Assembly: GCF_965641715.1 (NCBI RefSeq)
Contig: NZ_OZ282453.1
Direction: 5' to 3' (one strand)
DNA length: 64,000 nucleotides
DNA from: Escherichia coli
GTDB lineage: Bacteria; Pseudomonadota; Gammaproteobacteria; Enterobacterales; Enterobacteriaceae
In this document: in pieces, positions 9,639 through 49,044 of the stretch
How positions within the stretch are numbered: position 1 is the first letter of the stretch
Layout: each line of letters begins with the position of its first letter
Notes under the pieces: model-generated
The model's input: only the letters and a program-made list of their open reading frames with translations
Database searches by the model: none
Told to the model about the DNA's origin: nothing
Program-made: the position numbers and the translations under genes

Positions 9639-9660
9639 AGTGTTGCCTTTTTGTTATCAA

Positions 9661-9690
9661 TAAAAAAGGCCCCCCGATTTGGGAGGCCTT
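9661..9690 (-). terminator. pheA attenuator (leader terminator)
   Basis: GC-rich hairpin plus T-run on the minus strand between pheL and pheA. Confidence 0.6.
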
Positions 9691-9736
9691 ATTGTTCGTC
9701 TTCGCATTCTGTTTCATACGACGAAACGCCTCCCAT

Positions 9737-9784
9737 TCAGGGGAAGGTAAAAAAGAATGCGAAGAAAAACGGTGTGTGTTTCAT
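9737..9784 (-). CDS. pheL: pheA operon leader peptide (Phe-rich)
   Basis: 15-codon ORF MKHTPFFFAFFFTFP with seven Phe codons, upstream of the attenuator hairpin; absent from the ORF track because it is short. Confidence 0.85.
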   Translation of the reverse strand: MKHTPFFFAFFFTFP

Positions 9785-9838
9785 GTTTGTTTCCTTAAGT
9801 GACTTTAGTACAGTACCCGTACTGTTTTCACGCTGTCA

Positions 9839-9865
9839 ACAAAAAACGCGCCCGAAGGTGCGTTG
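9839..9865. repeat. Prophage attL direct repeat (int-proximal)
   Basis: ACAAAAAACGCGCCCGAAGGTGCGTTG; matches 45803-45829 at 26 of 27 positions. Confidence 0.6.
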
Positions 9866-9951: not shown

Positions 9952-10974
9952 TTATGTGGATGAAATGTGGATGCCTCCTTTTAACGGATTAAGTGAAATT
10001 GCATCCTGGAGGAAATCAGGAGCGAGGTGCGCATAGGTCATAGTTTGCTGGATCGTGGCGTGCCCCATAATTCGCTGGAGCGTAAGTATATTTCCTCCAT
10101 TAATCATAAAGTGAGCTGCAAAGGTATGGCGTAGAACATGTACTGCCTGCCCTTTTGGTAGATCAGGTTTAACACTGCGAAGCACCTTGCGATATTCCTC
10201 ATAATTGACGTCAAACAAAAGGCCGGATTTCTTTGTTTTGATCTCGCTAACAACTTCATCAGAGACAGGAATAATTCGAACTTTTCCGTTTTTAGTTTTG
10301 TTAAACGTCACGCGGTTATTGATGATGTGTTCCGCGCGCAGATTTTTCGCTTCTCCCCATCTCGCACCAGTACTGAGACAAAGTAGCGTAATCCGCCGGG
10401 CATCACCGCTTACTGCATCCAGTAATTTGGCAATTTCTTCCGTGGTGAGATACGTCATTTCGGGTGATTTTCGTTTCAAAGAGGGGAGGGCGCGGAGCGG
10501 ATTTTCTCCGTGAAATTCCCCGGCATTTGCCAGGAGTGTAAACATTCCTCCGAGATCCGACTCATCACGCCGAACAGTAGACTCTTTTACTCCCAAAGAT
10601 AAACGGGAGCTTCGATAAGCGGCCATGAAACGAGCATTAATCTGGCTAACCCTTGGATCATTCATTTCTTTGATGATTTTTTTCAACCTGGTTAGAACGC
10701 CGTTAGCATATGGCTTATTGCGTCCACCCAATTCCCACCATAACGGAAGCAGATCTGAGAGATGACGTTGCTCTGTTGGCTTTTCAAGCCATTCCTTATC
10801 GTGCATGTGGCTGAGAACATAACGCTCAAAGGCCACTGCATCTGCCTTTTTCTTAAAAATCCGCTGAATCCGACGTCCACTTCGGCCACGCGGTCTAACA
10901 TCCACTTTATACCGTCCACCATCGAGTGCTTTAATTGCCATTGGCAAGCCCTCCGGTGAAACGAGGAAAGACAT
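9952..10974 (-). CDS. int: Phage tyrosine integrase
   Basis: 340 aa with C-terminal tyrosine recombinase catalytic region (HxLRHT...Y); immediately inside attL. Confidence 0.9.
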   Translation of the reverse strand: MSFLVSPEGLPMAIKALDGGRYKVDVRPRGRSGRRIQRIFKKKADAVAFERYVLSHMHDKEWLEKPTEQRHLSDLLPLWWELGGRNKPYANGVLTRLKKIIKEMNDPRVSQINARFMAAYRSSRLSLGVKESTVRRDESDLGGMFTLLANAGEFHGENPLRALPSLKRKSPEMTYLTTEEIAKLLDAVSGDARRITLLCLSTGARWGEAKNLRAEHIINNRVTFNKTKNGKVRIIPVSDEVVSEIKTKKSGLLFDVNYEEYRKVLRSVKPDLPKGQAVHVLRHTFAAHFMINGGNILTLQRIMGHATIQQTMTYAHLAPDFLQDAISLNPLKGGIHISST

Positions 10975-14049: not shown

Positions 14050-14371
14050 GAAACCAGAGCATGCACACACAAAAAAACCGCTTGCCATGCCGCAATCAGT
14101 CAGGTTACATTTTCGCTGCACCTCATAAAACGGGTGCCGGGTTTCGCAGCCTGCTGACAACCAAAGCGCACAACCGCGCCAGCGGTTTTTTTGTGCGTAC
14201 TGTATTGCCACGTTTTTTTCGCGTCAGAATTATGGCGGGGCGTACGGGGCCGACTTCGGTCGGGCCGGGTTCTTTGGTTGCCGGTACTGCGAACCCCGTA
14301 CGTCTCGCCACCCACAGTTTCGCAGCTCTGGATGGTGAGTTTTCAAAACTTACAACCAAAGAGGCCACACC

Positions 14372-40904: not shown

Positions 40905-41417
40905 TCAGCCAAGCCCAAGCGCGGAACGGATACGGTCAGGCACAATGTCCTTGCCGTCCTTCCGGTAGATGAAGTTCAGCAGGTCAATCTCCCACAACGG
41001 GCGATCGTTAACACTCAGCTTGTAGTAGGTGTTTTTAATGGCGTAAGTGTGTGATGTGGCTTCGCCCTGTTTGGCTTCCCCCATATCAATTTCCGTCACA
41101 CGTCCGCGCATTTCGACTTCATACAGGTCGCTTTCTGCATCGGTGTAGTATTCACCCGCAAAACGCAGCAGCGTGCCGTCAATCGTGCCGCCATACTTAA
41201 GGAACAGCTCACGAACTGCGCCCCCCATGACAAAGCTCGCATCAAGCGCGGAGTCGTCCAGACCGAGATCAATACTTACCGCACCCATCATGCCGCCACC
41301 CCGGTAGCTGTCGGTTTTGCGCGTCAGCTTAGGCAGAGTGACGGACGTCACCTTACCCACTTCGTTTTCACCATCCACAAACAGCGTAAAAAAGCGAAGA
41401 TGTTTTGGCACAGCCAT
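40905..41417 (-). CDS. Tail tube protein (FII)
   Basis: 170 aa directly downstream of the sheath gene. Confidence 0.85.
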   Translation of the reverse strand: MAVPKHLRFFTLFVDGENEVGKVTSVTLPKLTRKTDSYRGGGMMGAVSIDLGLDDSALDASFVMGGAVRELFLKYGGTIDGTLLRFAGEYYTDAESDLYEVEMRGRVTEIDMGEAKQGEATSHTYAIKNTYYKLSVNDRPLWEIDLLNFIYRKDGKDIVPDRIRSALGLG

Positions 41418-42601
41418 CAGGCACCTCCCAGCACCGCAAATGCGGGTTCAAAGTATTCATCAGTAAACGTCTGGTAAAGCTCCATGTCTTCCAGTGGCGG
41501 AACGGGCGTATATTTGTAGCGAATACGCACGCGCCCCTGACGTAAATCCGTGGTGCTGTTATCCACCACGTCATACCAGCACTCCGCGCCAATCAGTTTC
41601 CCGGCAGTAACCAGTGAATCCAGTTTTGCCCTGATGGCACTGATAACATCCTTCACGTTCGCAGGCGTCAGTGGACTGTCGATGGTTTCAAACTGCGCTT
41701 CCGCAATTGAATCAGCCAGCACCTGTGCGGTTCGGGTATACACCTCAAAGATGTAGGCGTTCGTTTCCGGTGTGCGGTTGCCCCAGAAGCGGAACCCGTT
41801 GCGACGAATAATGGTCGTGATTTCTTTGTTGTTGAGGCTGTTGGCATCGCTGTCTTCGGCCTGCAACGACCAGAACACATGCTTCGACATCCCCAGCACA
41901 TTTTTAACCGGAACGTTGGACAGTGATTTGTGCCACCCCTGCTCATGGTCAATGTACGCACGAAGGCCGCACGCATAGGCAGGTGCGGGGAACGTTTCGT
42001 TTTTGCCACTTTTCGGGTTGTAGGCGATGAAGTCCGGCCATAAGAGCATCACCTCACGTTCGTTGAATTTCTGGCGGTAGGTAATCGCCTCAGCCATCGT
42101 GTTACAGCCGTGACATGAGGCATACACAAACGCGCGCAGTTTACCCGCAATCACGCACAGGGATTTTGTTACAGCCTCCGTGTCCAGCTCCGGCGCGGCC
42201 AGAATACGCGGACGGTATCCGATGCTTTCATCCTGCTCTGCAACAAGCAGCGCATACATCCCCGTATAGCTGCCGTCAGATTCAGAACCACCGATAACCA
42301 GTTGATCCTGCGTCTTTCCGTCTTCTTCTTTGTGTTCAGCCACGCGAACGACGATCACCTTTGTGCTCACCTGGTCTGCGATGGCCTTAAGCGCACGATA
42401 AAGCGTCCCCGTTGTCCCGCATTTTCCCAGCACGTCATTGACGCGGGTCAGCAGTGTGGGCTTGTTCAGCGGGAACAGCTTCGCGTCCGCATCATCCGCC
42501 GTTGCCACGATACCGATAACGCTGGAATCAACATCGTTAATCGCTGTTACCAGGTCGGTATTTTCCGTAACACGGGCACCATGAAAACGAGTTTCACTCA
42601 T
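41417..42601 (-). CDS. Tail sheath protein (FI)
   Basis: 394 aa; motifs such as LRAFVYASCHGC, GWHKSLSNV, IRRNGFRFWGNRT and YTPVPPLE match P2 FI as recalled. Confidence 0.9.
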   Translation of the reverse strand: MSETRFHGARVTENTDLVTAINDVDSSVIGIVATADDADAKLFPLNKPTLLTRVNDVLGKCGTTGTLYRALKAIADQVSTKVIVVRVAEHKEEDGKTQDQLVIGGSESDGSYTGMYALLVAEQDESIGYRPRILAAPELDTEAVTKSLCVIAGKLRAFVYASCHGCNTMAEAITYRQKFNEREVMLLWPDFIAYNPKSGKNETFPAPAYACGLRAYIDHEQGWHKSLSNVPVKNVLGMSKHVFWSLQAEDSDANSLNNKEITTIIRRNGFRFWGNRTPETNAYIFEVYTRTAQVLADSIAEAQFETIDSPLTPANVKDVISAIRAKLDSLVTAGKLIGAECWYDVVDNSTTDLRQGRVRIRYKYTPVPPLEDMELYQTFTDEYFEPAFAVLGGA

Positions 42602-42626
42602 AGCTTCAGCCCCTTGTATCCGTTAA

Positions 42627-43868
42627 ATGATTCGGCAACAATCATCACCCACCACGCGCGTAATCTCACCCCTGCGCCGTTCTCCCGCCACGGCGACAAC
42701 AAAAAGCAGTAACCCCCTCCGCACGCACATGCGACCATGCCGCACAGGGAGGGAGCAGATGACCGACACCACCATGCAATTGCTCAGTCAGGGCACAGAC
42801 CCCGTGAAAATGCCGGATTTTGATATTCTCGCGGAGGGTAAAACGCTGTCAGGCGTGGCAGAGCGCCTGATGAGCCTGTCAGTGACCGACAACCGGGGAT
42901 TTGAAGCGGACCAGCTCACCATCACGCTGGATGATGCGGATGGTCAGTTGCAGCTACCGCCACGGGGCGCGCGCCTGACGGTTCTCATTGGCTGGAAAGG
43001 AGAACCGCTGACAGAAAAAGGCACTTACATTGTTGATGAAATCGCTCACGAAGGACCGCCGGACAGGCTGACTGTTTCAGCCAGAAGCGCAGATTTTCGG
43101 GATGAATTTAACGTTAAACGTGAGGTGTCCTGGCATGATGTGACCGTTGAGCGTGTGGTATCCGCCATCGCTCATCGGTACGGTCTGAAACCGCAAATCA
43201 GCGAAATGCTGATGGATATCGAAATCGACCACGCCGACCAGACCGAAGAAAGCGACATGTCCTTTCTTACGCGCATGGCGGAAATGCTGGGCGCAATCAC
43301 CACGGTAAAAAGCGGTAATCTGTTATTCATTATGCCAGGCGGTGGCGTGAACGCACAGGGCCAGCCGTTGCCCTCGTTCGCCATCACGCGCAGCAGTGGC
43401 GATCGCCATCAGTTCCGCATTGCTGACCGCGAAGCGTATACGGGGGTACGCGCTTACTGGCTTGATCTTAATTACGGGAAAAAGAAAAAAGTCAGCGTGA
43501 AACGCCGCAAACCGCCAAAACCCAAAAAGGAGAAAAGCAGCAGCCGTGAAGGTGATTATATGGAAGGTGCGGAAGGCAATGTGTTTGTGTTACGCAAGAC
43601 TTATCAGAACGAGCAGGCAGCAAGACGCGCAGCGGCGGCAAAGTGGCAGCAACTACAACGCGGAGCCGCATCATTCTCCATCACGCTGACACGTGGACGA
43701 GCAGAACTCTACCCCGAAATGCATGGCACGGTAACAGGATTTAAAAGCGAGATTGATAATCAGGACTGGATTATTGCGAAAGCCGAGCACACCATTGATA
43801 ACAGTGGCTTTACCACGCAGCTTGAGCTTGAAGCAAAAATCCCGGAATGGATAGCAGAAACAGAGTGA
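42627..43868 (+). CDS. Tail/late control protein D
   Basis: gpD-family features; the true start is probably an internal Met near 42759; divergent from the FI gene. Confidence 0.8.
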   Translation: MIRQQSSPTTRVISPLRRSPATATTKSSNPLRTHMRPCRTGREQMTDTTMQLLSQGTDPVKMPDFDILAEGKTLSGVAERLMSLSVTDNRGFEADQLTITLDDADGQLQLPPRGARLTVLIGWKGEPLTEKGTYIVDEIAHEGPPDRLTVSARSADFRDEFNVKREVSWHDVTVERVVSAIAHRYGLKPQISEMLMDIEIDHADQTEESDMSFLTRMAEMLGAITTVKSGNLLFIMPGGGVNAQGQPLPSFAITRSSGDRHQFRIADREAYTGVRAYWLDLNYGKKKKVSVKRRKPPKPKKEKSSSREGDYMEGAEGNVFVLRKTYQNEQAARRAAAAKWQQLQRGAASFSITLTRGRAELYPEMHGTVTGFKSEIDNQDWIIAKAEHTIDNSGFTTQLELEAKIPEWIAETE

Positions 43869-43910: not shown

Positions 43911-44171
43911 ATGTTCCGTTGTCCGCTTTGTGGCGCATCTGCCCGTATCCGCACCAGTCGTCCGGAAAATGATTCAAACACCGTGCGGCAAAAGTATTAC
44001 CAGTGTAACAATCTGGAATGCGGCGTATGCTTCTCAACACTGGAAGCTTTCCATAAATTCACATCGAAACACGCCTCCGGCGTTCACTCTTCAGAAGGTA
44101 TCCCGTGGCATGAGCTGCCAGCTTCACACAGGGGAAACAATCAGATGAGTTTGCCTTTATCTCAGAATTAA
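43911..44171 (+). CDS. ogr: Late transcription activator, Ogr/Delta zinc-finger family
   Basis: MFRCPLCGASARIRTSR...YYQCNNLECGVCF has the four-Cys Ogr signature. Confidence 0.85.
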   Translation: MFRCPLCGASARIRTSRPENDSNTVRQKYYQCNNLECGVCFSTLEAFHKFTSKHASGVHSSEGIPWHELPASHRGNNQMSLPLSQN

Positions 44172-44259
44172 CAGGCAGAATTGCCGGAGTAACAAAAAAG
44201 CGATAGATTACGCGCGGGTGCCTTTCGGCTGATGGTCGGAGGGAATACCCGAAGGCCAG

Positions 44260-44496
44260 ATGTGGAAAGGCCCCGGAAAACATTTCTGTTTAACCGAGGC
44301 CCTAACACTTCTTACCTTCGCAAGTAGAAGGTTAGCGCCTCTCCTCTCAGGAGACAAGCGTTATGACGCAAATTCCGTTAAAAACCCTGTTACTTTGCAT
44401 AACTGCGGTAGCGATAATCTGGATCCTCCACACATCACCGTGCGAGTTACGATTCAGGTTTGCTGGCACGGAAATTGCGGCATTCTTACTATGTAA
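44260..44496 (+). CDS. Putative mok-like overlapping frame of the hok locus
   Basis: 78-codon frame that starts upstream of, and overlaps almost all of, the hok-like ORF in another frame, as mok does in hok/sok loci. Confidence 0.35.
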   Translation: MWKGPGKHFCLTEALTLLTFASRRLAPLLSGDKRYDANSVKNPVTLHNCGSDNLDPPHITVRVTIQVCWHGNCGILTM

Positions 44497-44503
44497 TAAG
44501 TAA
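44363..44503 (+). CDS. Hok/Gef-family type I toxin (46 aa)
   Basis: MTQIPLKTLLLCITAVAIIWILHTSPCELRFRFAGTEIAAFLLCNK: single TM helix then the Hok signature C-E-hydrophobic-R...G..E-hydrophobic-A-A-F. Confidence 0.65.
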   Translation: MTQIPLKTLLLCITAVAIIWILHTSPCELRFRFAGTEIAAFLLCNK

Positions 44504-44591
44504 GATAACCGCGACGGGGGAGTAATCCCCCGTCAATCGGTTGCTAAGGTTGGTCGAAACGGCATCCTATCTCACAGACATGAACAACAAA

Positions 44592-44623
44592 CCCGCAGCG
44601 TAAAAACTGCGGGTTTTCTTTTT
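44592..44623 (+). terminator. Rho-independent terminator downstream of the hok locus
   Basis: CCCGCAGCGTAAAAACTGCGGG hairpin followed by a T-rich run. Confidence 0.5.
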
Positions 44624-44670
44624 GCTACCCTCACAAATGAGGGCACCATACATAAGCAATAGGCATAACA

Positions 44671-44705
44671 GATCGATGCAATAAATCCGATCGATAAAAA
44701 CGATC
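44671..44705. promoter_or_regulatory. Cluster of three GATC (Dam) sites upstream of com-methyltransferase
   Basis: GATC at about 44671, 44689 and 44702 within 35 bp, some 50-80 bp upstream of the com-like start. Confidence 0.45.
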
Positions 44706-44752
44706 GATTTGTTATCATATCGGCAGCAGTAACCACACAAGAGGTGCCGCAA

Positions 44753-44950
44753 ATGACGCAAAATGTACGATGCAAAAATTGCAACAAACTACTTGCCCGC
44801 GCCTCATTTCACTACATTGAAATAAAATGTCCGCGCTGCAAAACACTTAACCAGATAACGAGAGCCATCGAGCACCCCACACACATGAGGAGTTATGACC
44901 GTGGGGATCGCAATCCAGCACCAACCAGCACATACGCCAGAACACACTAA
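44753..44950 (+). CDS. Com-like zinc-finger translational regulator
   Basis: MTQNVRCKNCNKLLARASFHYIEIKCPRCKTLNQ...EHPT resembles phage Mu Com as recalled; 3' end overlaps the methyltransferase start; track ORF starts at GTG 44744. Confidence 0.75.
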   Translation: MTQNVRCKNCNKLLARASFHYIEIKCPRCKTLNQITRAIEHPTHMRSYDRGDRNPAPTSTYARTH

Positions 44951-45701
44951 GGTTTATCAGACTGACAATGTCACGCTCTGTTGTGGGAATGCACTGGAAA
45001 TATTGCCGCTGATTGAGCCAGAAAGCATTGATGCCTTAATCACTGACCCGCCTTACAGTTCGGGTGCGACACACAAGGCCGGACGCACCAATCAGGGCAG
45101 CCATGCAAAATATCTGAACGGCGAGAACCTTCACCGCTTTGATGGGTTCGCGGGTGAAAACATGGACGCCCGTTCGTGGGCTTACTGGACACAATTATGG
45201 ATGGCACAGGCACACCGCGCAGTCAGGCCAGGCGGTTATGCCATGGTATTTACTGACTGGCGACAACTACCAGCTTTAACCGATGCGTTTCAGGCCAGTG
45301 GCTTTACATGGCGCGGCATCATTGCGTGGAACAAGGGGAGGGGGTCACGAACACCACATACCGGGTATTTCCGGCATCAGTGCGAATACATCGTCTGGGG
45401 CAGCAAAGGCCATTTAGATAAATCGCCTTCGGGGCCGTTCGACGGCTGCATGACGTACCCGGTTATCCCGTCAAAGAAAATGCACCCGACCGGAAAACCA
45501 GAAGAACTAATGGCGGAACTGGTCAGGACTGTGAATAGTGGCGGAACAGTCCTTGATCCTTTTATGGGGTCAGGGACAACGGGTGTGGCTGCACTGAAAG
45601 CAGGGCGAAAATTTATTGGTATAGAAACCAGTGATCATTATTTTGAGGTAGCAGCGCAGCGGCTTCGGGGGACTATTACCACAACCATTTCGGCTACATA
45701 A
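44895..45701 (+). CDS. DNA methyltransferase with DPPY motif (N6-adenine or N4-cytosine), no restriction partner seen
   Basis: 268 aa; N-terminal ...ESIDALITDPPYSS... catalytic motif and C-terminal FMGSGTTGVAA AdoMet-binding motif; start overlaps com. Confidence 0.85.
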   Translation: MTVGIAIQHQPAHTPEHTKVYQTDNVTLCCGNALEILPLIEPESIDALITDPPYSSGATHKAGRTNQGSHAKYLNGENLHRFDGFAGENMDARSWAYWTQLWMAQAHRAVRPGGYAMVFTDWRQLPALTDAFQASGFTWRGIIAWNKGRGSRTPHTGYFRHQCEYIVWGSKGHLDKSPSGPFDGCMTYPVIPSKKMHPTGKPEELMAELVRTVNSGGTVLDPFMGSGTTGVAALKAGRKFIGIETSDHYFEVAAQRLRGTITTTISAT

Positions 45702-45802: not shown

Positions 45803-45829
45803 ACAAAAAACGCGCCCGAAGGCGCGTTG
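45803..45829. repeat. Prophage attR direct repeat, coincident with the raiA terminator
   Basis: ACAAAAAACGCGCCCGAAGGCGCGTTG; forms a perfect GCGCC-TTCG-GGCGC hairpin plus T-run on the minus strand after raiA. Confidence 0.6.
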
Positions 45830-45851: not shown

Positions 45852-46247
<396 letters not shown>

Positions 46248-46463: not shown

Positions 46464-47201
46464 TTATGTATTGCTGCTGTTTGCGGCGATGATTTTCGCT
46501 ACTTTTTCAGCTTGCGCATTCATCTGCATCTGACGGTATGCATTTTCCATCAGCGGCAGCGCATCACGCGTAGCCTGGGTATCCGGGTAGTCGCGCAACA
46601 TGCCTTCTACGCGGTTAACGACGGCAACCCATGCGCCACGTTCTGTATAGTACTCGGCCACGGAGTATTCATATTTCGCCAGACGATCTTTCAGGAATAC
46701 CAGACGTTTGGTGGCATCGGTGGTGTACTGACTGTTTGGATAGCCGCGCACCAGTTTGGAAAAGTCACTAAACGCAGCTCGTGCATGTTGAGGATCGCGA
46801 TCGCTACGGTCAACGCCAAAGAACCCTTGCAGCGCACTGTCATCCAGCGCCATATTGGTCAGGCCACGCATGTACATGACATAATCGATATTCGGATGGG
46901 TCGGGTTAAGGCGAATAAAACGATCGATGGCAGCCTGCGCTAACGGCAAATCGGCGTTTTTATAGTAGGCGTAGATGAGATCCAGCTGCACCTGCTGCGA
47001 ATACGGACCAAACGGATAGCGATTATCTAACGCTTCCAGTTGCGTTATTGCCTGTCTCCAGTTACCGTCCTGCAGCTTTTGTTGTGCAGTCGCGTAAATT
47101 TCATTTGGCGGATTATCAGGTACTTCTTCCTTTGACCCCGAGCAACCCGCCAAAAACAGGCTTAGTGTGGCGGCTGCCACCAGATATTTCATGCGCGTCA
47201 T
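46464..47201 (-). CDS. bamD: Outer-membrane protein assembly factor BamD
   Basis: 245 aa lipoprotein (LFLAGCSG) with TPR-like repeats. Confidence 0.9.
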
Positions 47202-47335
47202 GACGTTTTGACTTTCCTCAAAATGTAATACGGGAGATTCTCTGTTCCTGCTCCCGGTTAAGACCAGCTACAATAGCACACTATATTAAACGGCAAAGCC
47301 GTAAAACCCCAACGATAAACGAAGAAGCAGTATAT

Positions 47336-48316
47336 ATGGCACAACGAGTACAGCTCACTGCAACGGTGTCCGAAAACCAACTCGGTCAACGCTTAGATCA
47401 GGCTTTGGCCGAAATGTTCCCGGATTATTCACGTTCGCGAATAAAAGAATGGATCCTCGACCAGCGCGTGCTGGTTAACGGCAAACTTTGTGATAAGCCG
47501 AAAGAAAAAGTATTGGGTGGCGAGCAGGTTGCCATCAACGCAGAGATTGAAGAAGAAGCGCGTTTTGAACCGCAGGATATCCCGCTGGATATCGTCTATG
47601 AAGATGAAGACATCATCGTCATTAATAAACCGCGCGACCTGGTGGTTCATCCTGGCGCGGGTAACCCGGATGGCACGGTACTGAATGCGTTGCTTCATTA
47701 TTATCCGCCTATTGCCGATGTACCGCGTGCGGGCATCGTCCATCGTCTGGATAAAGACACCACTGGCCTGATGGTTGTGGCAAAAACCGTTCCGGCTCAG
47801 ACGCGTTTAGTCGAATCTTTGCAAAGGCGTGAAATTACTCGTGAGTACGAAGCGGTGGCGATTGGTCATATGACCGCTGGCGGTACGGTGGATGAGCCAA
47901 TCAGTCGCCACCCGACCAAACGTACTCACATGGCGGTGCATCCGATGGGCAAACCAGCGGTGACTCACTATCGCATCATGGAACACTTCCGTGTGCACAC
48001 GCGTCTGCGGTTGCGTCTGGAAACTGGACGTACGCACCAGATCCGCGTGCATATGGCCCATATCACTCATCCGCTGGTGGGCGATCCGGTTTATGGTGGC
48101 CGTCCGCGTCCGCCAAAAGGTGCTTCGGAAGCGTTTATCTCCACGCTGCGTAAATTTGACCGCCAGGCGCTTCATGCAACCATGCTGCGTCTTTATCACC
48201 CGATCTCCGGTATCGAAATGGAATGGCATGCGCCTATTCCACAAGATATGGTGGAGCTGATTGAGGTGATGCGCGCCGATTTCGAAGAGCATAAAGATGA
48301 AGTGGACTGGTTATGA
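47336..48316 (+). CDS. rluD: 23S rRNA pseudouridine synthase RluD
   Basis: 326 aa with N-terminal S4-like domain and RluA-family catalytic region (HRLDKDTTGLMVVAKT). Confidence 0.9.
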   Translation: MAQRVQLTATVSENQLGQRLDQALAEMFPDYSRSRIKEWILDQRVLVNGKLCDKPKEKVLGGEQVAINAEIEEEARFEPQDIPLDIVYEDEDIIVINKPRDLVVHPGAGNPDGTVLNALLHYYPPIADVPRAGIVHRLDKDTTGLMVVAKTVPAQTRLVESLQRREITREYEAVAIGHMTAGGTVDEPISRHPTKRTHMAVHPMGKPAVTHYRIMEHFRVHTRLRLRLETGRTHQIRVHMAHITHPLVGDPVYGGRPRPPKGASEAFISTLRKFDRQALHATMLRLYHPISGIEMEWHAPIPQDMVELIEVMRADFEEHKDEVDWL

Positions 48317-49044
48317 GTAAGCTGATTGTCCCGCAGTGGCCGCTGCCAAAAGGTGTTGCGGCCTGTAGCTCTACTCGTATCGGCGGCGTGAGCTTGCCCC
48401 CGTATGACTCGCTCAACCTCGGTGCCCATTGTGGCGATAACCCGGATCACGTTGAGGAGAATCGCAAGCGACTTTTTGCTGCGGGCAATTTGCCTTCTAA
48501 ACCGGTCTGGCTTGAGCAGGTACACGGCAAAGATGTGCTTAATCTTACTGGCGAACCTTATGCCTCAAAACGAGCAGATGCCTCTTATAGCAATACGCCC
48601 GGCACGGTTTGCGCAGTGATGACTGCCGACTGCCTCCCTGTGCTGTTTTGCAATCGAGCGGGAACGGAAGTCGCCGCCGCTCATGCTGGCTGGCGTGGAC
48701 TGTGCGCAGGCGTGCTGGAAGAGACAGTTTCCTGTTTTGCTGATAATCCAGAAAATATTCTCGCCTGGTTAGGGCCGGCAATTGGTCCACGCGCGTTCGA
48801 AGTGGGGGCGGAGGTTCGCGAGGCGTTTATGGCAGCAGACGCCAAAGCGAGTACAGCTTTCATTCAGCATGGTGATAAGTATCTGGCGGATATTTATCTG
48901 CTTGCCCGGCAGCGTCTGGCGAGCGTTGGTGTTGAACAAATTTTCGGCGGCGACCGTTGTACATATACGGAAAATGAGACTTTCTTCTCTTATCGTCGCG
49001 ACAAGACCACCGGGCGTATGGCAAGTTTCATTTGGCTGATATAA
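48313..49044 (+). CDS. yfiH: Purine nucleoside phosphorylase / laccase-domain protein YfiH (PgeF)
   Basis: 243-aa ORF overlapping the rluD stop. Confidence 0.85.
   Translation: MSKLIVPQWPLPKGVAACSSTRIGGVSLPPYDSLNLGAHCGDNPDHVEENRKRLFAAGNLPSKPVWLEQVHGKDVLNLTGEPYASKRADASYSNTPGTVCAVMTADCLPVLFCNRAGTEVAAAHAGWRGLCAGVLEETVSCFADNPENILAWLGPAIGPRAFEVGAEVREAFMAADAKASTAFIQHGDKYLADIYLLARQRLASVGVEQIFGGDRCTYTENETFFSYRRDKTTGRMASFIWLI

What the first reader, a model, noticed from the sequence alone, without database searches (positions are those of the whole stretch)
44172..44625. hok/mok-like type I toxin locus between ogr and attR
A 46-codon ORF absent from the track encodes a peptide with one transmembrane helix and the Hok/Gef C-terminal signature (PCELRFRFAGTEIAAF). 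A longer overlapping frame (44260-44496) is positioned like mok, and a stable hairpin (about 44512-44533) and terminator follow. An antisense sok-like RNA would be expected on the minus strand around 44290-44370, but I cannot define its promoter from sequence alone.
Basis: partly seen in the sequence, partly recalled or inferred. Interest (0 to 1): 0.55.

Follow-up and report, generated by a model that had tools for sequence, protein, structure and literature searches.

The report
Prophage hok/sok toxin–antitoxin locus

Summary
The 46-codon ORF 44363-44503(+) exists. It matches Pfam HOK_GEF (E 2.9e-8) and PHROG 251. RefSeq annotates it at these exact coordinates as "Hok/Gef family protein" WP_032140709.1; the window is 100% identical to E. 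coli UMNF18.

The RNA anatomy of a hok/sok locus is present:
- The 5' leader (44216-44374) matches the Rfam hok-leader model, below its gathering score (47.4 vs 59 bits, E 1.8e-9).
- The predicted 407-nt mRNA folds with z = -9.6. Its 5' end (44216-44233) pairs with 44549-44567 (tac/fbi).
- In silico 3' truncation re-pairs the 5' end with 44262-44274 (tac/ucb).
- The hairpin 44513-44534 shows compensatory changes in relatives. A terminator follows at 44589-44616.

By position relative to annotated sokB/sokC, Sok is predicted on the minus strand at about 44321 to 44260. Its -10 is TAACCT (44334-44329) and its -35 is TTGTCT (44357-44352).

The 78-codon "mok-like" frame is real but not conserved: 41 of 70 relatives lack any such overlap, and no start codon sits at the canonical mok position.

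Homologous loci occur in 1256 of 5426 complete E. coli genomes, usually right after ogr in P2-like prophages. Interest is low; the locus is already known.

The parts
44181..44209 (+). Predicted hok promoter: -35 TTGCCG (44181-44186), 17-nt spacer, -10 TAGATT (44204-44209)
   Evidence: Read directly from the sequence. Both hexamers are conserved in the BLAST-derived relatives. It lies 7 nt upstream of the position that aligns to position 1 of the Rfam hok-leader model. It falls below the 9/12 threshold of the promoter scan, so one search does not list it.
44216..44622 (+). Predicted full-length hok mRNA (about 405 nt)
   Evidence: The 5' end comes from the Rfam RF01794 alignment, model position 1 = 44216. 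The 3' end comes from the intrinsic terminator. MFE is -165.6 kcal/mol, z = -9.6 against 100 shuffles.
44216..44233 (+). tac-like 5' element (GGGUGCCUUUCGGCUGAUGG)
   Evidence: It pairs with 44549-44567 in the full-length MFE and centroid structures. It pairs with 44262-44274 once the 3' end is removed. It is nearly invariant in relatives.
44260..44496 (+).
   Evidence: The ORF is listed. Its AUG is conserved in 70/70 relatives, but ORF length ranges from 6 to 79 codons, and 41/70 relatives have no out-of-frame ORF overlapping hok. It is not at the canonical mok start position.
44262..44274 (+). ucb-like box (within GUGGAAAGGCCCC)
   Evidence: It pairs with the 5' tac element in the truncated mRNA fold. 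In the full-length fold, 44269-44276 pairs with 44294-44301, which contains the GAGG that serves as the mok Shine-Dalgarno in canonical loci.
44260..44321 (-). Predicted Sok antisense RNA (about 62 nt): 13-nt single-stranded 5' tail, long hairpin (arms 44301-44294 and 44276-44269), tail UUUCCACAU
   Evidence: Annotated sokC and sokB map antisense to Rfam model positions about 44-106. Those positions correspond to window 44260-44321. The fold is -26.3 kcal/mol, z = -4.85, with the same architecture as SokB/SokC. Expression was not tested.
44329..44357 (-). Predicted Sok promoter: -35 TTGTCT (44357-44352), 17-nt spacer, -10 TAACCT (44334-44329), then 7 nt to G44321
   Evidence: The layout matches sokB (TTGCCG-17-TAAGAT-7-G) and R1 Sok (TTGCGC-17-TATCCT). 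The -10 block AGGTTAGCGCCTC is invariant in all 16 BLAST-derived sequences. It scores only 7/12 to consensus, so the scan did not report it.
44340..44354 (+). Local hairpin sequestering the hok Shine-Dalgarno (UCUCCU / AGGAGA; SD GGAG at 44350-44353)
   Evidence: It is present in both the full-length and the truncated MFE structures.
44363..44503 (+). hok: 46-aa Hok/Gef toxin gene
   Evidence: It is RefSeq WP_032140709.1.
44506..44543 (+). 3'-UTR stem-loop (inner 9-bp stem 44513-44521 / 44526-44534)
   Evidence: It is present in the MFE. In the 71-sequence alignment, 5 of its 9 inner pairs show changes on both sides and 98.7% of cells are paired.
44549..44567 (+). fbi-like 3' element that pairs with the mRNA 5' end
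   Evidence: It forms 18 pairs with 44216-44233. In relatives, helix 1 is 98.8% paired and helix 2 is 88.6% paired. Variation is mostly one-sided and pair-preserving (GC/GU, UA/UG).
44589..44622 (+). Intrinsic terminator (10-bp stem, then UUUUCUUUUU)

Best explanation
The locus is a hok/sok-type type I toxin-antitoxin module. It is carried as a moron just downstream of ogr in a roughly 36-kb P2-like (P88/Xuanwuvirus-like) prophage integrated between pheL and raiA of E. coli UMNF18.

Proposed mechanism (shown = computed on this sequence; inferred = taken from the R1 hok/sok paradigm):
1. A weak promoter (44181-44209) makes a roughly 405-nt hok mRNA starting at G44216 (inferred from homology).
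2. The full-length mRNA is closed by pairing of its 5' end with 44549-44567, tac/fbi. The hok SD and AUG sit in a local hairpin, so the mRNA is inert (shown in silico).
3. Slow 3' trimming removes fbi. The 5' end then switches to pair with 44262-44274, tac/ucb, which remodels the leader (shown in silico for truncated RNAs; the trimming itself is inferred).
4. A constitutive, unstable 62-nt antisense RNA, Sok (about 44321 to 44260), base-pairs with the leader. The duplex is destroyed by RNase III, and/or translation of the leader ORF beginning at AUG 44260 is blocked (inferred).
5. When Sok supply stops, the stable mRNA pool is translated into the 46-aa Hok peptide. Sok supply could stop through prophage loss, host transcription shut-off by an infecting phage, or SOS induction. 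Hok inserts into the inner membrane and kills or lyses the cell (inferred).

Whether hok translation depends on an upstream mok-like ORF in this subfamily is unresolved.
For: - Protein: Pfam HOK_GEF E 2.9e-8; PHROG 251 E 2.8e-13; 35% identity to R1 Hok across the TM-CE(I/L)R-AAF core. Six of the seven residues reported as over 80% conserved in 1264 Hok peptides are present at a constant offset of 4: M1, C12, T14, C27, E28, E37, with L30 replaced by P26 (sequence read against bioRxiv 10.1101/2025.08.07.668861). dN/dS is 0.14-0.40.
- Annotation: the identical gene is named Hok/Gef in RefSeq. Orthologues directly after ogr in P88, Chuche, P88_4B11 and 500465-2 are named 'MokW-like host killing'.
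- Leader RNA: Rfam RF01794 matches full length at 44216-44374, E 1.8e-9. Searches show that this model represents the hok-sense leader.
- mRNA fold: z = -9.6 with 5'-3' end pairing. The same procedure recovers the published tac/fbi pairing in an R1-type locus used as a positive control.
- Conservation of structure: on 71 relatives, 89.8% of cells are paired against 35-48% when partners are slid, and 11 pairs change on both sides.
- Sok: promoter layout and RNA architecture match sokB, sokC and R1 Sok.
- Family function: a related prophage locus, hokW-sokW, is experimentally a type I TA system that depends on RNase III and Hfq (PMC8621323). The R1 mechanism is summarised in PMC9841398.
Against: - No expression or toxicity data exist for this allele.
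- The Rfam hit is below the family's gathering score (47.4 vs 59 bits). The NCBIfam HokA and Hok-subfamily models are far below their cut-offs (27.7 vs 89 and 25.2 vs 73), so this is a divergent branch.
- Both promoters are weak matches to consensus and were not reported by the scan.
- No start codon lies at the canonical mok position, and the long overlapping ORF is not conserved. In R1, mok translation up to the hok SD is required.
- The covariation evidence has limits. Tac and ucb are invariant, so they are uninformative. The structure tested was derived from the window sequence. Sequences L020 and later were selected by two exact motifs, so conservation of those motifs there is circular.
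- fbi lies about 55 nt from the predicted 3' end, rather than at the very end as in R1.
Confidence: 0.9

Rival explanations
1. The 78-codon frame 44260-44496 is a genuine mok. Its translation through the hok SD hairpin is required for hok translation, and Sok acts by blocking its initiation.
For: - The ORF exists, is out of frame with hok and ends 7 nt before the hok stop, as a canonical mok would.
- Its AUG and the upstream GAAGG are conserved in 70/70 relatives.
- The AUG sits at the 3' edge of the predicted Sok duplex, so Sok could occlude initiation.
- The hok SD and AUG are sequestered in a hairpin that a translating ribosome would open.
- In R1, mok translation up to the hok SD is mandatory.
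Against: - The start lies about 45 nt upstream of the mokB/mokC start position in the leader model, and no ATG/GTG/TTG occurs at that canonical position.
- In relatives the ORF from this AUG is 6-29 codons long in most cases and stops 13-83 nt before the hok AUG. Its frame relative to hok varies. One phage (1720a-02) has ATG-TGA. 41 of 70 relatives have no overlapping ORF at all.
- The AUG lies in a structurally conserved stem, so its conservation may be an RNA constraint.
Confidence: 0.3
2. The locus is an inactivated relic, like most chromosomal hok loci of E. coli K-12. The ORF is intact but the module no longer kills.
For: - Own knowledge: several K-12 hok loci are inactivated by IS elements or rearrangements.
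- The window allele has a G-U instead of G-C in the tac/fbi core (GGCAUCC vs GGCACCC in most relatives).
- RefSeq marks the prophage's tape-measure gene as frameshifted, so the prophage itself may be defective.
Against: - Both promoters, tac, ucb, fbi, the SD, the ORF and the terminator are all intact.
- The ORF is under purifying selection.
- Identical or nearly identical alleles occur in 40 complete genomes, and homologues occur in 1256.
- No IS interrupts the locus, unlike relative L045.
Confidence: 0.08
3. The components are the same, but the selected role is phage-centred rather than post-segregational stabilisation of the prophage. Either Hok accelerates lysis and release after induction, as shown for hokW-sokW of Sp5, or it acts as an abortive-infection defence when a superinfecting phage shuts off host transcription.
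For: - hokW-sokW halves Sp5 release when deleted, and HokW rises after mitomycin C in a RecA-dependent way (PMC8621323).
- hok genes are enriched about four-fold in prophages (bioRxiv 10.1101/2025.08.07.668861).
- The locus sits with another moron (com plus a DNA methyltransferase) at the prophage end.
- Own knowledge: R1 hok/sok excludes T4 (Pecota and Wood 1996).
Against: Nothing in the sequence distinguishes these roles. [quoted passage not shown]
Confidence: 0.4

Closest known systems
hok/sok/mok (parB) of plasmid R1
   Same: - Hok/Gef toxin fold and motif (TM helix, CE(I/L)R, AAF).
- Leader homologous to the same Rfam model.
- 5'-3' tac/fbi closure, with a switch to tac/ucb after 3' shortening.
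- Antisense Sok promoter embedded between the leader hairpin and the hok SD, with identical 17-nt spacing.
- Stable stem-loop just 3' of the stop codon.
   Different: - The toxin is 46 aa rather than 52 aa and only 35% identical.
- No start codon lies at the R1/K-12 mok position.
- fbi is followed by about 20 nt and a separate terminator instead of lying at the mRNA end.
- The locus is on a prophage, not a plasmid.
Chromosomal hokB/sokB and hokC/sokC of E. coli K-12
   Same: - Sok position, length (57-59 nt there vs about 62 nt here) and shape (12-13-nt 5' tail, one long hairpin, short U-poor tail).
- The same leader model matches.
   Different: - The K-12 loci score 110-118 bits on RF01794, against 47 here.
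- They have annotated mok genes whose AUG lies under the Sok 5' end; here that position has no start codon.
hokW-sokW of Stx2 prophage Sp5 (E. coli O157 Sakai)
   Same: It is a prophage-borne hok/sok that has been validated experimentally as a type I TA system (PMC8621323). Phage annotators use the same PHROG and product name, 'MokW-like host killing', for the orthologues of this gene.
   Different: - HokW is 51 aa and sits in a lambdoid phage.
- The 5' leader given in that paper's primers (GGGTGCTTGAGGCTATCTGCC...) is the canonical type, not the GGGTGCCTTTCGGCTGATGG type seen here.
46-aa Hok of phage P88 (gp52) and other Xuanwuvirus/Gemsvirus P2-like phages
   Same: - Same position directly after ogr.
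- Same leader (94% identity), 3' hairpin, fbi and terminator.
- Same 46-aa length.
   Different: - The window allele's coding region and Sok-tail target are only 63-67% identical to them, and the protein is 48% identical.
- Most of them lack the long overlapping ORF.

Membership tests
Hok/Gef toxin family (Pfam PF01848) | Peptide of about 50 aa with an N-terminal transmembrane helix and the conserved C...T...(L)CE...E...AAF core | tested here: met
   - Pfam HOK_GEF E 2.9e-8, model positions 7-42 of 42.
- PHROG 251 E 2.8e-13.
- BLASTP to R1 Hok E 3e-8.
- Hydrophobic stretch LKTLLLCITAVAIIWIL, read directly from the sequence.
- Six of the seven residues reported as over 80% conserved are present.
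Hok/Gef toxin family (NCBIfam curated models HokA NF007290 and Hok subfamily NF007279) | Score at or above the curated cut-off | tested here: not met
   Scores are 27.7 bits against a cut-off of 89, and 25.2 against 73. The protein belongs to neither curated subgroup. RefSeq nevertheless names it 'Hok/Gef family protein'.
[quoted passage not shown] | hok mRNA leader homologous to the family (Rfam RF01794, which models the hok-sense leader) | tested here: inconclusive
   The match is full length (model positions 1-157) at 44216-44374, scoring 47.4 bits with E 1.8e-9. That is below the gathering score of 59. P88 and a Stx-phage orthologue score 47.9 and 42.1 bits.
[quoted passage not shown] | Long-range pairing of the mRNA 5' end (tac) with a 3' element (fbi) | tested here: met
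   - 18 pairs, 44216-44233 with 44549-44567, appear in both the MFE and centroid structures.
- Helices 1 and 2 are 98.8% and 88.6% paired across 71 relatives, with pair-preserving one-sided changes.
- The positive control on an R1-type locus works.
- This is in silico only.
[quoted passage not shown] | Alternative tac/ucb pairing in the 3'-truncated mRNA | tested here: met
   When the RNA is cut at 44540, the 5' end pairs with 44262-44274. Both boxes are invariant in relatives, so there is no covariation support. Processing itself is not testable here.
[quoted passage not shown] | mok: an ORF starting under the Sok 5' end, overlapping hok, whose translation is needed for hok translation | tested here: inconclusive
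   An out-of-frame overlapping ORF is present in the window (44260-44496). However, it does not start at the canonical site, where there is no ATG/GTG/TTG. It is absent from 41 of 70 relatives. Whether hok translation depends on it is not testable here.
[quoted passage not shown] | Antisense Sok RNA of about 60 nt with its own promoter inside the leader | tested here: met
   - Sequence features are present at the homologous position: -35/17/-10/7/+1 layout, 5' tail plus hairpin.
- The -10 block is invariant in 16 independently retrieved relatives.
- This is a prediction from sequence only.
[quoted passage not shown] | Sok is actually transcribed and neutralises Hok; Hok is toxic | not testable with these tools
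   This needs RNA-seq or northern blots and toxicity assays. Only relatives (R1 hok, hokW) have such data.

The most novel reading that the evidence does not exclude
The 46-aa Hok subfamily of P2-like and some Stx prophages may be a regulatory variant of hok/sok that has lost the canonical mok. The GAGG that serves as the mok SD elsewhere is kept only as RNA structure. Instead, a leader AUG (44260) at the 3' edge of the Sok duplex is conserved, opening ORFs of very variable length (1-79 codons). Hok translation would then either be mok-independent or be triggered by a short upstream ORF acting at a distance. Sok would work mainly through RNase III decay or by blocking this alternative start.
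Probability: 0.3. Interest if true: 0.3.

Novelty: already known. Interest (0 to 1): 0.12.

Why it matters
It matters little as a discovery. The gene is named in RefSeq. The family has been catalogued: 32,532 loci in RefSeq genomes and 6,290 in phages, per bioRxiv 10.1101/2025.08.07.668861. A prophage relative has been characterised experimentally.

The practical value is in annotation:
- The antitoxin RNA and both promoters of this widespread prophage subfamily are not annotated, because the Rfam model scores below threshold.
- The Rfam 'sok' model actually describes the hok-sense leader, so strand calls based on it are misleading.
- This subfamily does not fit the textbook three-gene hok/mok/sok scheme.

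These points are useful to people curating type I TA systems or engineering P2-like prophages.

Tried and rejected
- Rfam at gathering thresholds over the whole window found no hok/sok hit. The hit appears only with E-value thresholds.
- The consensus promoter scan found neither the hok nor the Sok promoter. Both score 7-8 of 12, as do the known Sok promoters, so they had to be placed by homology.
- I looked for a start codon, including near-cognates by eye, at the canonical mok position (44300-44320) and found none. In-frame N-terminal extensions of hok are absent in 70/70 relatives.
- NCBIfam gave only sub-threshold hits. The 78-aa 'Mok' product hits nothing in NCBIfam or PHROGs, which is expected because Mok peptides are not conserved.
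- I searched the held supplements of the Hok catalogue preprint for this peptide, the P88-type peptide and the WP accession. There were no occurrences. The held text may be truncated, so this says little.
- A literature search for hok in P2-like prophages returned nothing specific.
- I rejected the idea that the ORF is a chance ORF.
- I rejected the idea that the 44512-44533 hairpin is the terminator. It is an internal 3'-UTR stem with compensatory changes, and the terminator is separate.

Full report
**What is at the coordinates.** The window is 100% identical over 44172-44650 to the chromosome of E. coli UMNF18, a porcine isolate. The ORF 44363-44503(+) encodes the 46-aa peptide MTQIPLKTLLLCITAVAIIWILHTSPCELRFRFAGTEIAAFLLCNK. 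It has a GGAG Shine-Dalgarno 9 nt upstream. RefSeq annotates exactly this ORF as WP_032140709.1, 'Hok/Gef family protein'. It lies directly after an ogr/Delta-like zinc-finger gene (43911-44171) and before a Com-family gene and a DNA methyltransferase (44744-45701), followed by raiA. The peptide matches:
- Pfam HOK_GEF, E 2.9e-8.
- PHROG 251, 'MokW-like host killing', E 2.8e-13.
- R1 Hok, 35% identity over the TM-CE(I/L)R-AAF core.

It scores far below the curated NCBIfam cut-offs for HokA and the Hok subfamily, so it is a divergent branch of the family.

**Context.** A 20-bp direct repeat, ACAAAAAACGCGCCCGAAGG, occurs at 9839-9858 and 45803-45822. The left copy lies next to a 340-aa minus-strand ORF at 9952-10974, which I take to be the integrase from its position; I did not test this. 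The repeats delimit a prophage of about 36 kb inserted between pheL (Phe leader at 9660-9785) and raiA. The hok locus is therefore inside the prophage right arm. attR is 1.2 kb further on, not adjacent.

The ogr-hok arrangement is a standard feature of P2-like phages. Phage P88 (Xuanwuvirus), Chuche, P88_4B11 and 500465-2 (Gemsvirus) all carry a 46-aa Hok gene at the same place, 80-83% identical at the DNA level, and three of them have an annotated regulator gene at the ogr position. Citrobacter phage Shae_phiSM carries the homologous DNA but it is unannotated there. The 46-aa gene also sits next to lom or tail-fibre genes in some lambdoid and Stx phages. In complete E. coli genomes, 1256 of 5426 hold a homologous locus. 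It is annotated Hok/Gef in all but one of the 60 rows listed, and 40 records are at least 95% identical to the window.

**The hok mRNA.** At permissive thresholds the Rfam family RF01794, named 'sok', matches 44216-44374 on the plus strand over its full length (47.4 bits, E 1.8e-9, gathering score 59). I checked what this model represents. On K-12 it hits the hokC and hokB strand and ends at the hok AUG. The curated sokC and sokB RNAs lie on the opposite strand, across model positions about 44-106. The model is therefore the sense-strand hok leader, and the window hit places the mRNA 5' end at G44216.

Seven nucleotides upstream lies TAGATT (44204-44209). A TTGCCG (44181-44186) sits 17 nt before that. 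Both are conserved in relatives.

Folding 44216-44622 gives -165.6 kcal/mol, 9.6 sd below shuffles. In the MFE and centroid structures the first 18 nt pair with 44549-44567, the family's tac/fbi end pairing. Removing the 3' end to 44540 makes the 5' end pair instead with 44262-44274 (tac/ucb). It also releases 44294-44301 into the GAGGC/GCCUC stem of the Rfam consensus. As a positive control, the same procedure on an R1-type hok locus recovers its known 5'-3' pairing. The mechanism these elements serve is summarised in PMC9841398.

**Conservation of the structure.** I aligned the window with 70 distinct relatives: 14 from BLAST hits and 56 from an IMG/VR pattern scan. On this alignment the window-derived structure has 89.8% of cells paired, against 35-48% when partners are slid. 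Eleven pairs show changes on both sides, and none of 500 shuffles reaches the observed values for four of the five measures.
- The tac/fbi helices vary mostly on the 3' side, and in pair-preserving ways (GC/GU, UA/UG, GU/GC).
- The 3'-UTR hairpin 44513-44534 has 5 of 9 pairs with compensatory changes.

There are caveats. The structure came from one of the aligned sequences. The sequences are related. The IMG/VR set was selected by two exact motifs (GGAAAGGCCCCG and AGGTTAGCGCCTC), so invariance of those motifs in that set is circular. In the independently retrieved BLAST set they are invariant too.

**Sok.** Transferring the curated sokB/sokC extents through the Rfam alignment puts Sok at about 44321 to 44260 on the minus strand. 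The minus strand there reads TTGTCT (44357-44352), 17 nt, TAACCT (44334-44329), 7 nt, then G44321. This is the same layout as sokB (TTGCCG-17-TAAGAT-7-G) and R1 Sok (TTGCGC-17-TATCCT). The predicted 62-nt RNA has a 13-nt single-stranded 5' tail, one long hairpin and a short UUUCC tail, like SokB and SokC. It folds at -26.3 kcal/mol, z = -4.85.

The segment complementary to the Sok 5' tail (44303-44321) is among the most variable parts of the locus: 67% identity between the window and relatives, against 94% for the rest of the leader. That would fit divergence of antitoxin specificity, since genomes carry up to four copies. This is an inference.

**mok.** This is where the locus departs from the textbook. 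In K-12 the mokB and mokC start codons lie under the Sok 5' end, just after the GAGG of the leader hairpin. At the corresponding place in the window (about 44300-44320) there is no ATG, GTG or TTG.

That AUG is conserved in 70/70 relatives. The ORF it opens, however, is 6-29 codons long in most of them, shifts frame relative to hok, and stops 13-83 nt before the hok AUG. One phage has ATG-TGA. 41 of 70 relatives have no out-of-frame ORF overlapping hok.

In both predicted conformations the hok SD and AUG are locked in a local hairpin (44333-44363). Some unwinding mechanism is therefore likely needed. In R1, mok translation up to the hok SD is mandatory and beyond it dispensable. I conclude that the 78-codon frame may act as a mok in this allele, but it is not a conserved element of the subfamily. 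The dependence of hok translation on a leader ORF is open.

**Is it alive?** All elements are intact. The Hok frame shows dN/dS of 0.14-0.40 against relatives, and 37 distinct coding sequences give only 15 proteins. One relative (L045) is disrupted just after the SD, which shows what decay looks like. The window allele is not like that. No expression or toxicity data exist for it.

**Comparison with known systems, and novelty.** The closest systems are R1 hok/sok/mok, K-12 hokB/sokB and hokC/sokC, the experimentally validated prophage locus hokW-sokW of Sp5 (PMC8621323), and the orthologous 46-aa genes of P88-like phages. A recent catalogue reports 32,532 Hok loci in RefSeq genomes and 6,290 in phages, about four-fold enrichment in prophages, and toxicity of representative new clusters. 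It explicitly leaves Mok and Sok unannotated because they are hard to call (bioRxiv 10.1101/2025.08.07.668861).

The finding is therefore a correct identification of a known, annotated element. Biological role cannot be decided from sequence; the candidates are prophage stabilisation, help with lysis after induction as for hokW, or abortive infection.

**Verdict.** Novelty is 'already known' and interest is about 0.12.

Noticed in passing
window 44216-44374 (+); L017 402-554; L018 467-618: The Rfam family RF01794, named 'sok antitoxin', actually models the hok-sense 5' leader, from the mRNA +1 to the hok AUG. On K-12 it hits the hokB/hokC strand, while the curated sokB/sokC RNAs lie antisense to model positions about 44-106. 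Annotation that copies the hit as 'sok' would get both strand and extent wrong.
   Followed up: yes
window 44671-44718 and 44744-45701: Three GATC (Dam) sites, each within a GATCGAT repeat, lie at 44671, 44689 and 44702. The last two overlap a promoter-like site (TCGATA-16-TATCAT, 44691-44718). This sits just upstream of a Com-family gene (44744-44950) that overlaps the start of a 268-aa DPPY DNA methyltransferase (44895-45701). From my own recollection, the layout resembles phage Mu com/mom with its Dam/OxyR-controlled promoter.
   Followed up: partly
window 9839-9858 and 45803-45822: A 20-bp exact direct repeat, ACAAAAAACGCGCCCGAAGG, flanks a prophage of about 36 kb between pheL and raiA. 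These are the likely attL/attR cores. A 340-aa minus-strand ORF at 9952-10974, beside the left copy, is presumed to be the integrase from its position but was not tested.
   Followed up: partly
window 14118-14315 (+): Rfam gathering-level hits to isrK (14118-14192) and C4 antisense RNA (14228-14315) lie in the early region of this P2-like prophage. From my own recollection this is a P1/P7-type immunity RNA module.
   Followed up: no
window about 40172-43868 (locus L001 1-3697): RefSeq marks the tail tape-measure gene as frameshifted and annotates a partial hypothetical gene. It calls only an 801-nt gpD-like CDS where the window has a 413-codon ORF (42627-43868). The prophage may be defective, or this older shotgun assembly may carry indel errors.
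   Followed up: no
window 44303-44362 and 44363-44503 compared with 44216-44302 and 44504-44548: The locus is a mosaic. The window allele's Sok-tail target, SD region and coding sequence are only 57-67% identical to P88-type relatives, while the leader scaffold and 3' hairpin are 86-94% identical. This suggests cassette-like exchange, or much stronger constraint on the RNA scaffold than on the toxin.
   Followed up: partly
L120 4309-4710 and 5031-5432; L016 1-128 and 460-600: Some elements carry two hok loci of this subfamily in tandem, about 720 bp apart in an IMG/VR contig. In E. coli JNEC-KY203 two adjacent Hok/Gef genes lie next to serS.
   Followed up: no
L045 4493-4894: One family member keeps the leader and Sok region, but its sequence diverges completely just after the hok SD. 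This is a disrupted copy, probably from an insertion or rearrangement.
   Followed up: no
window 46507-47844: An IS4 transposase gene sits between raiA (45852-46193) and bamD (47904-48641), just outside the prophage right end (coordinates converted).
   Followed up: no
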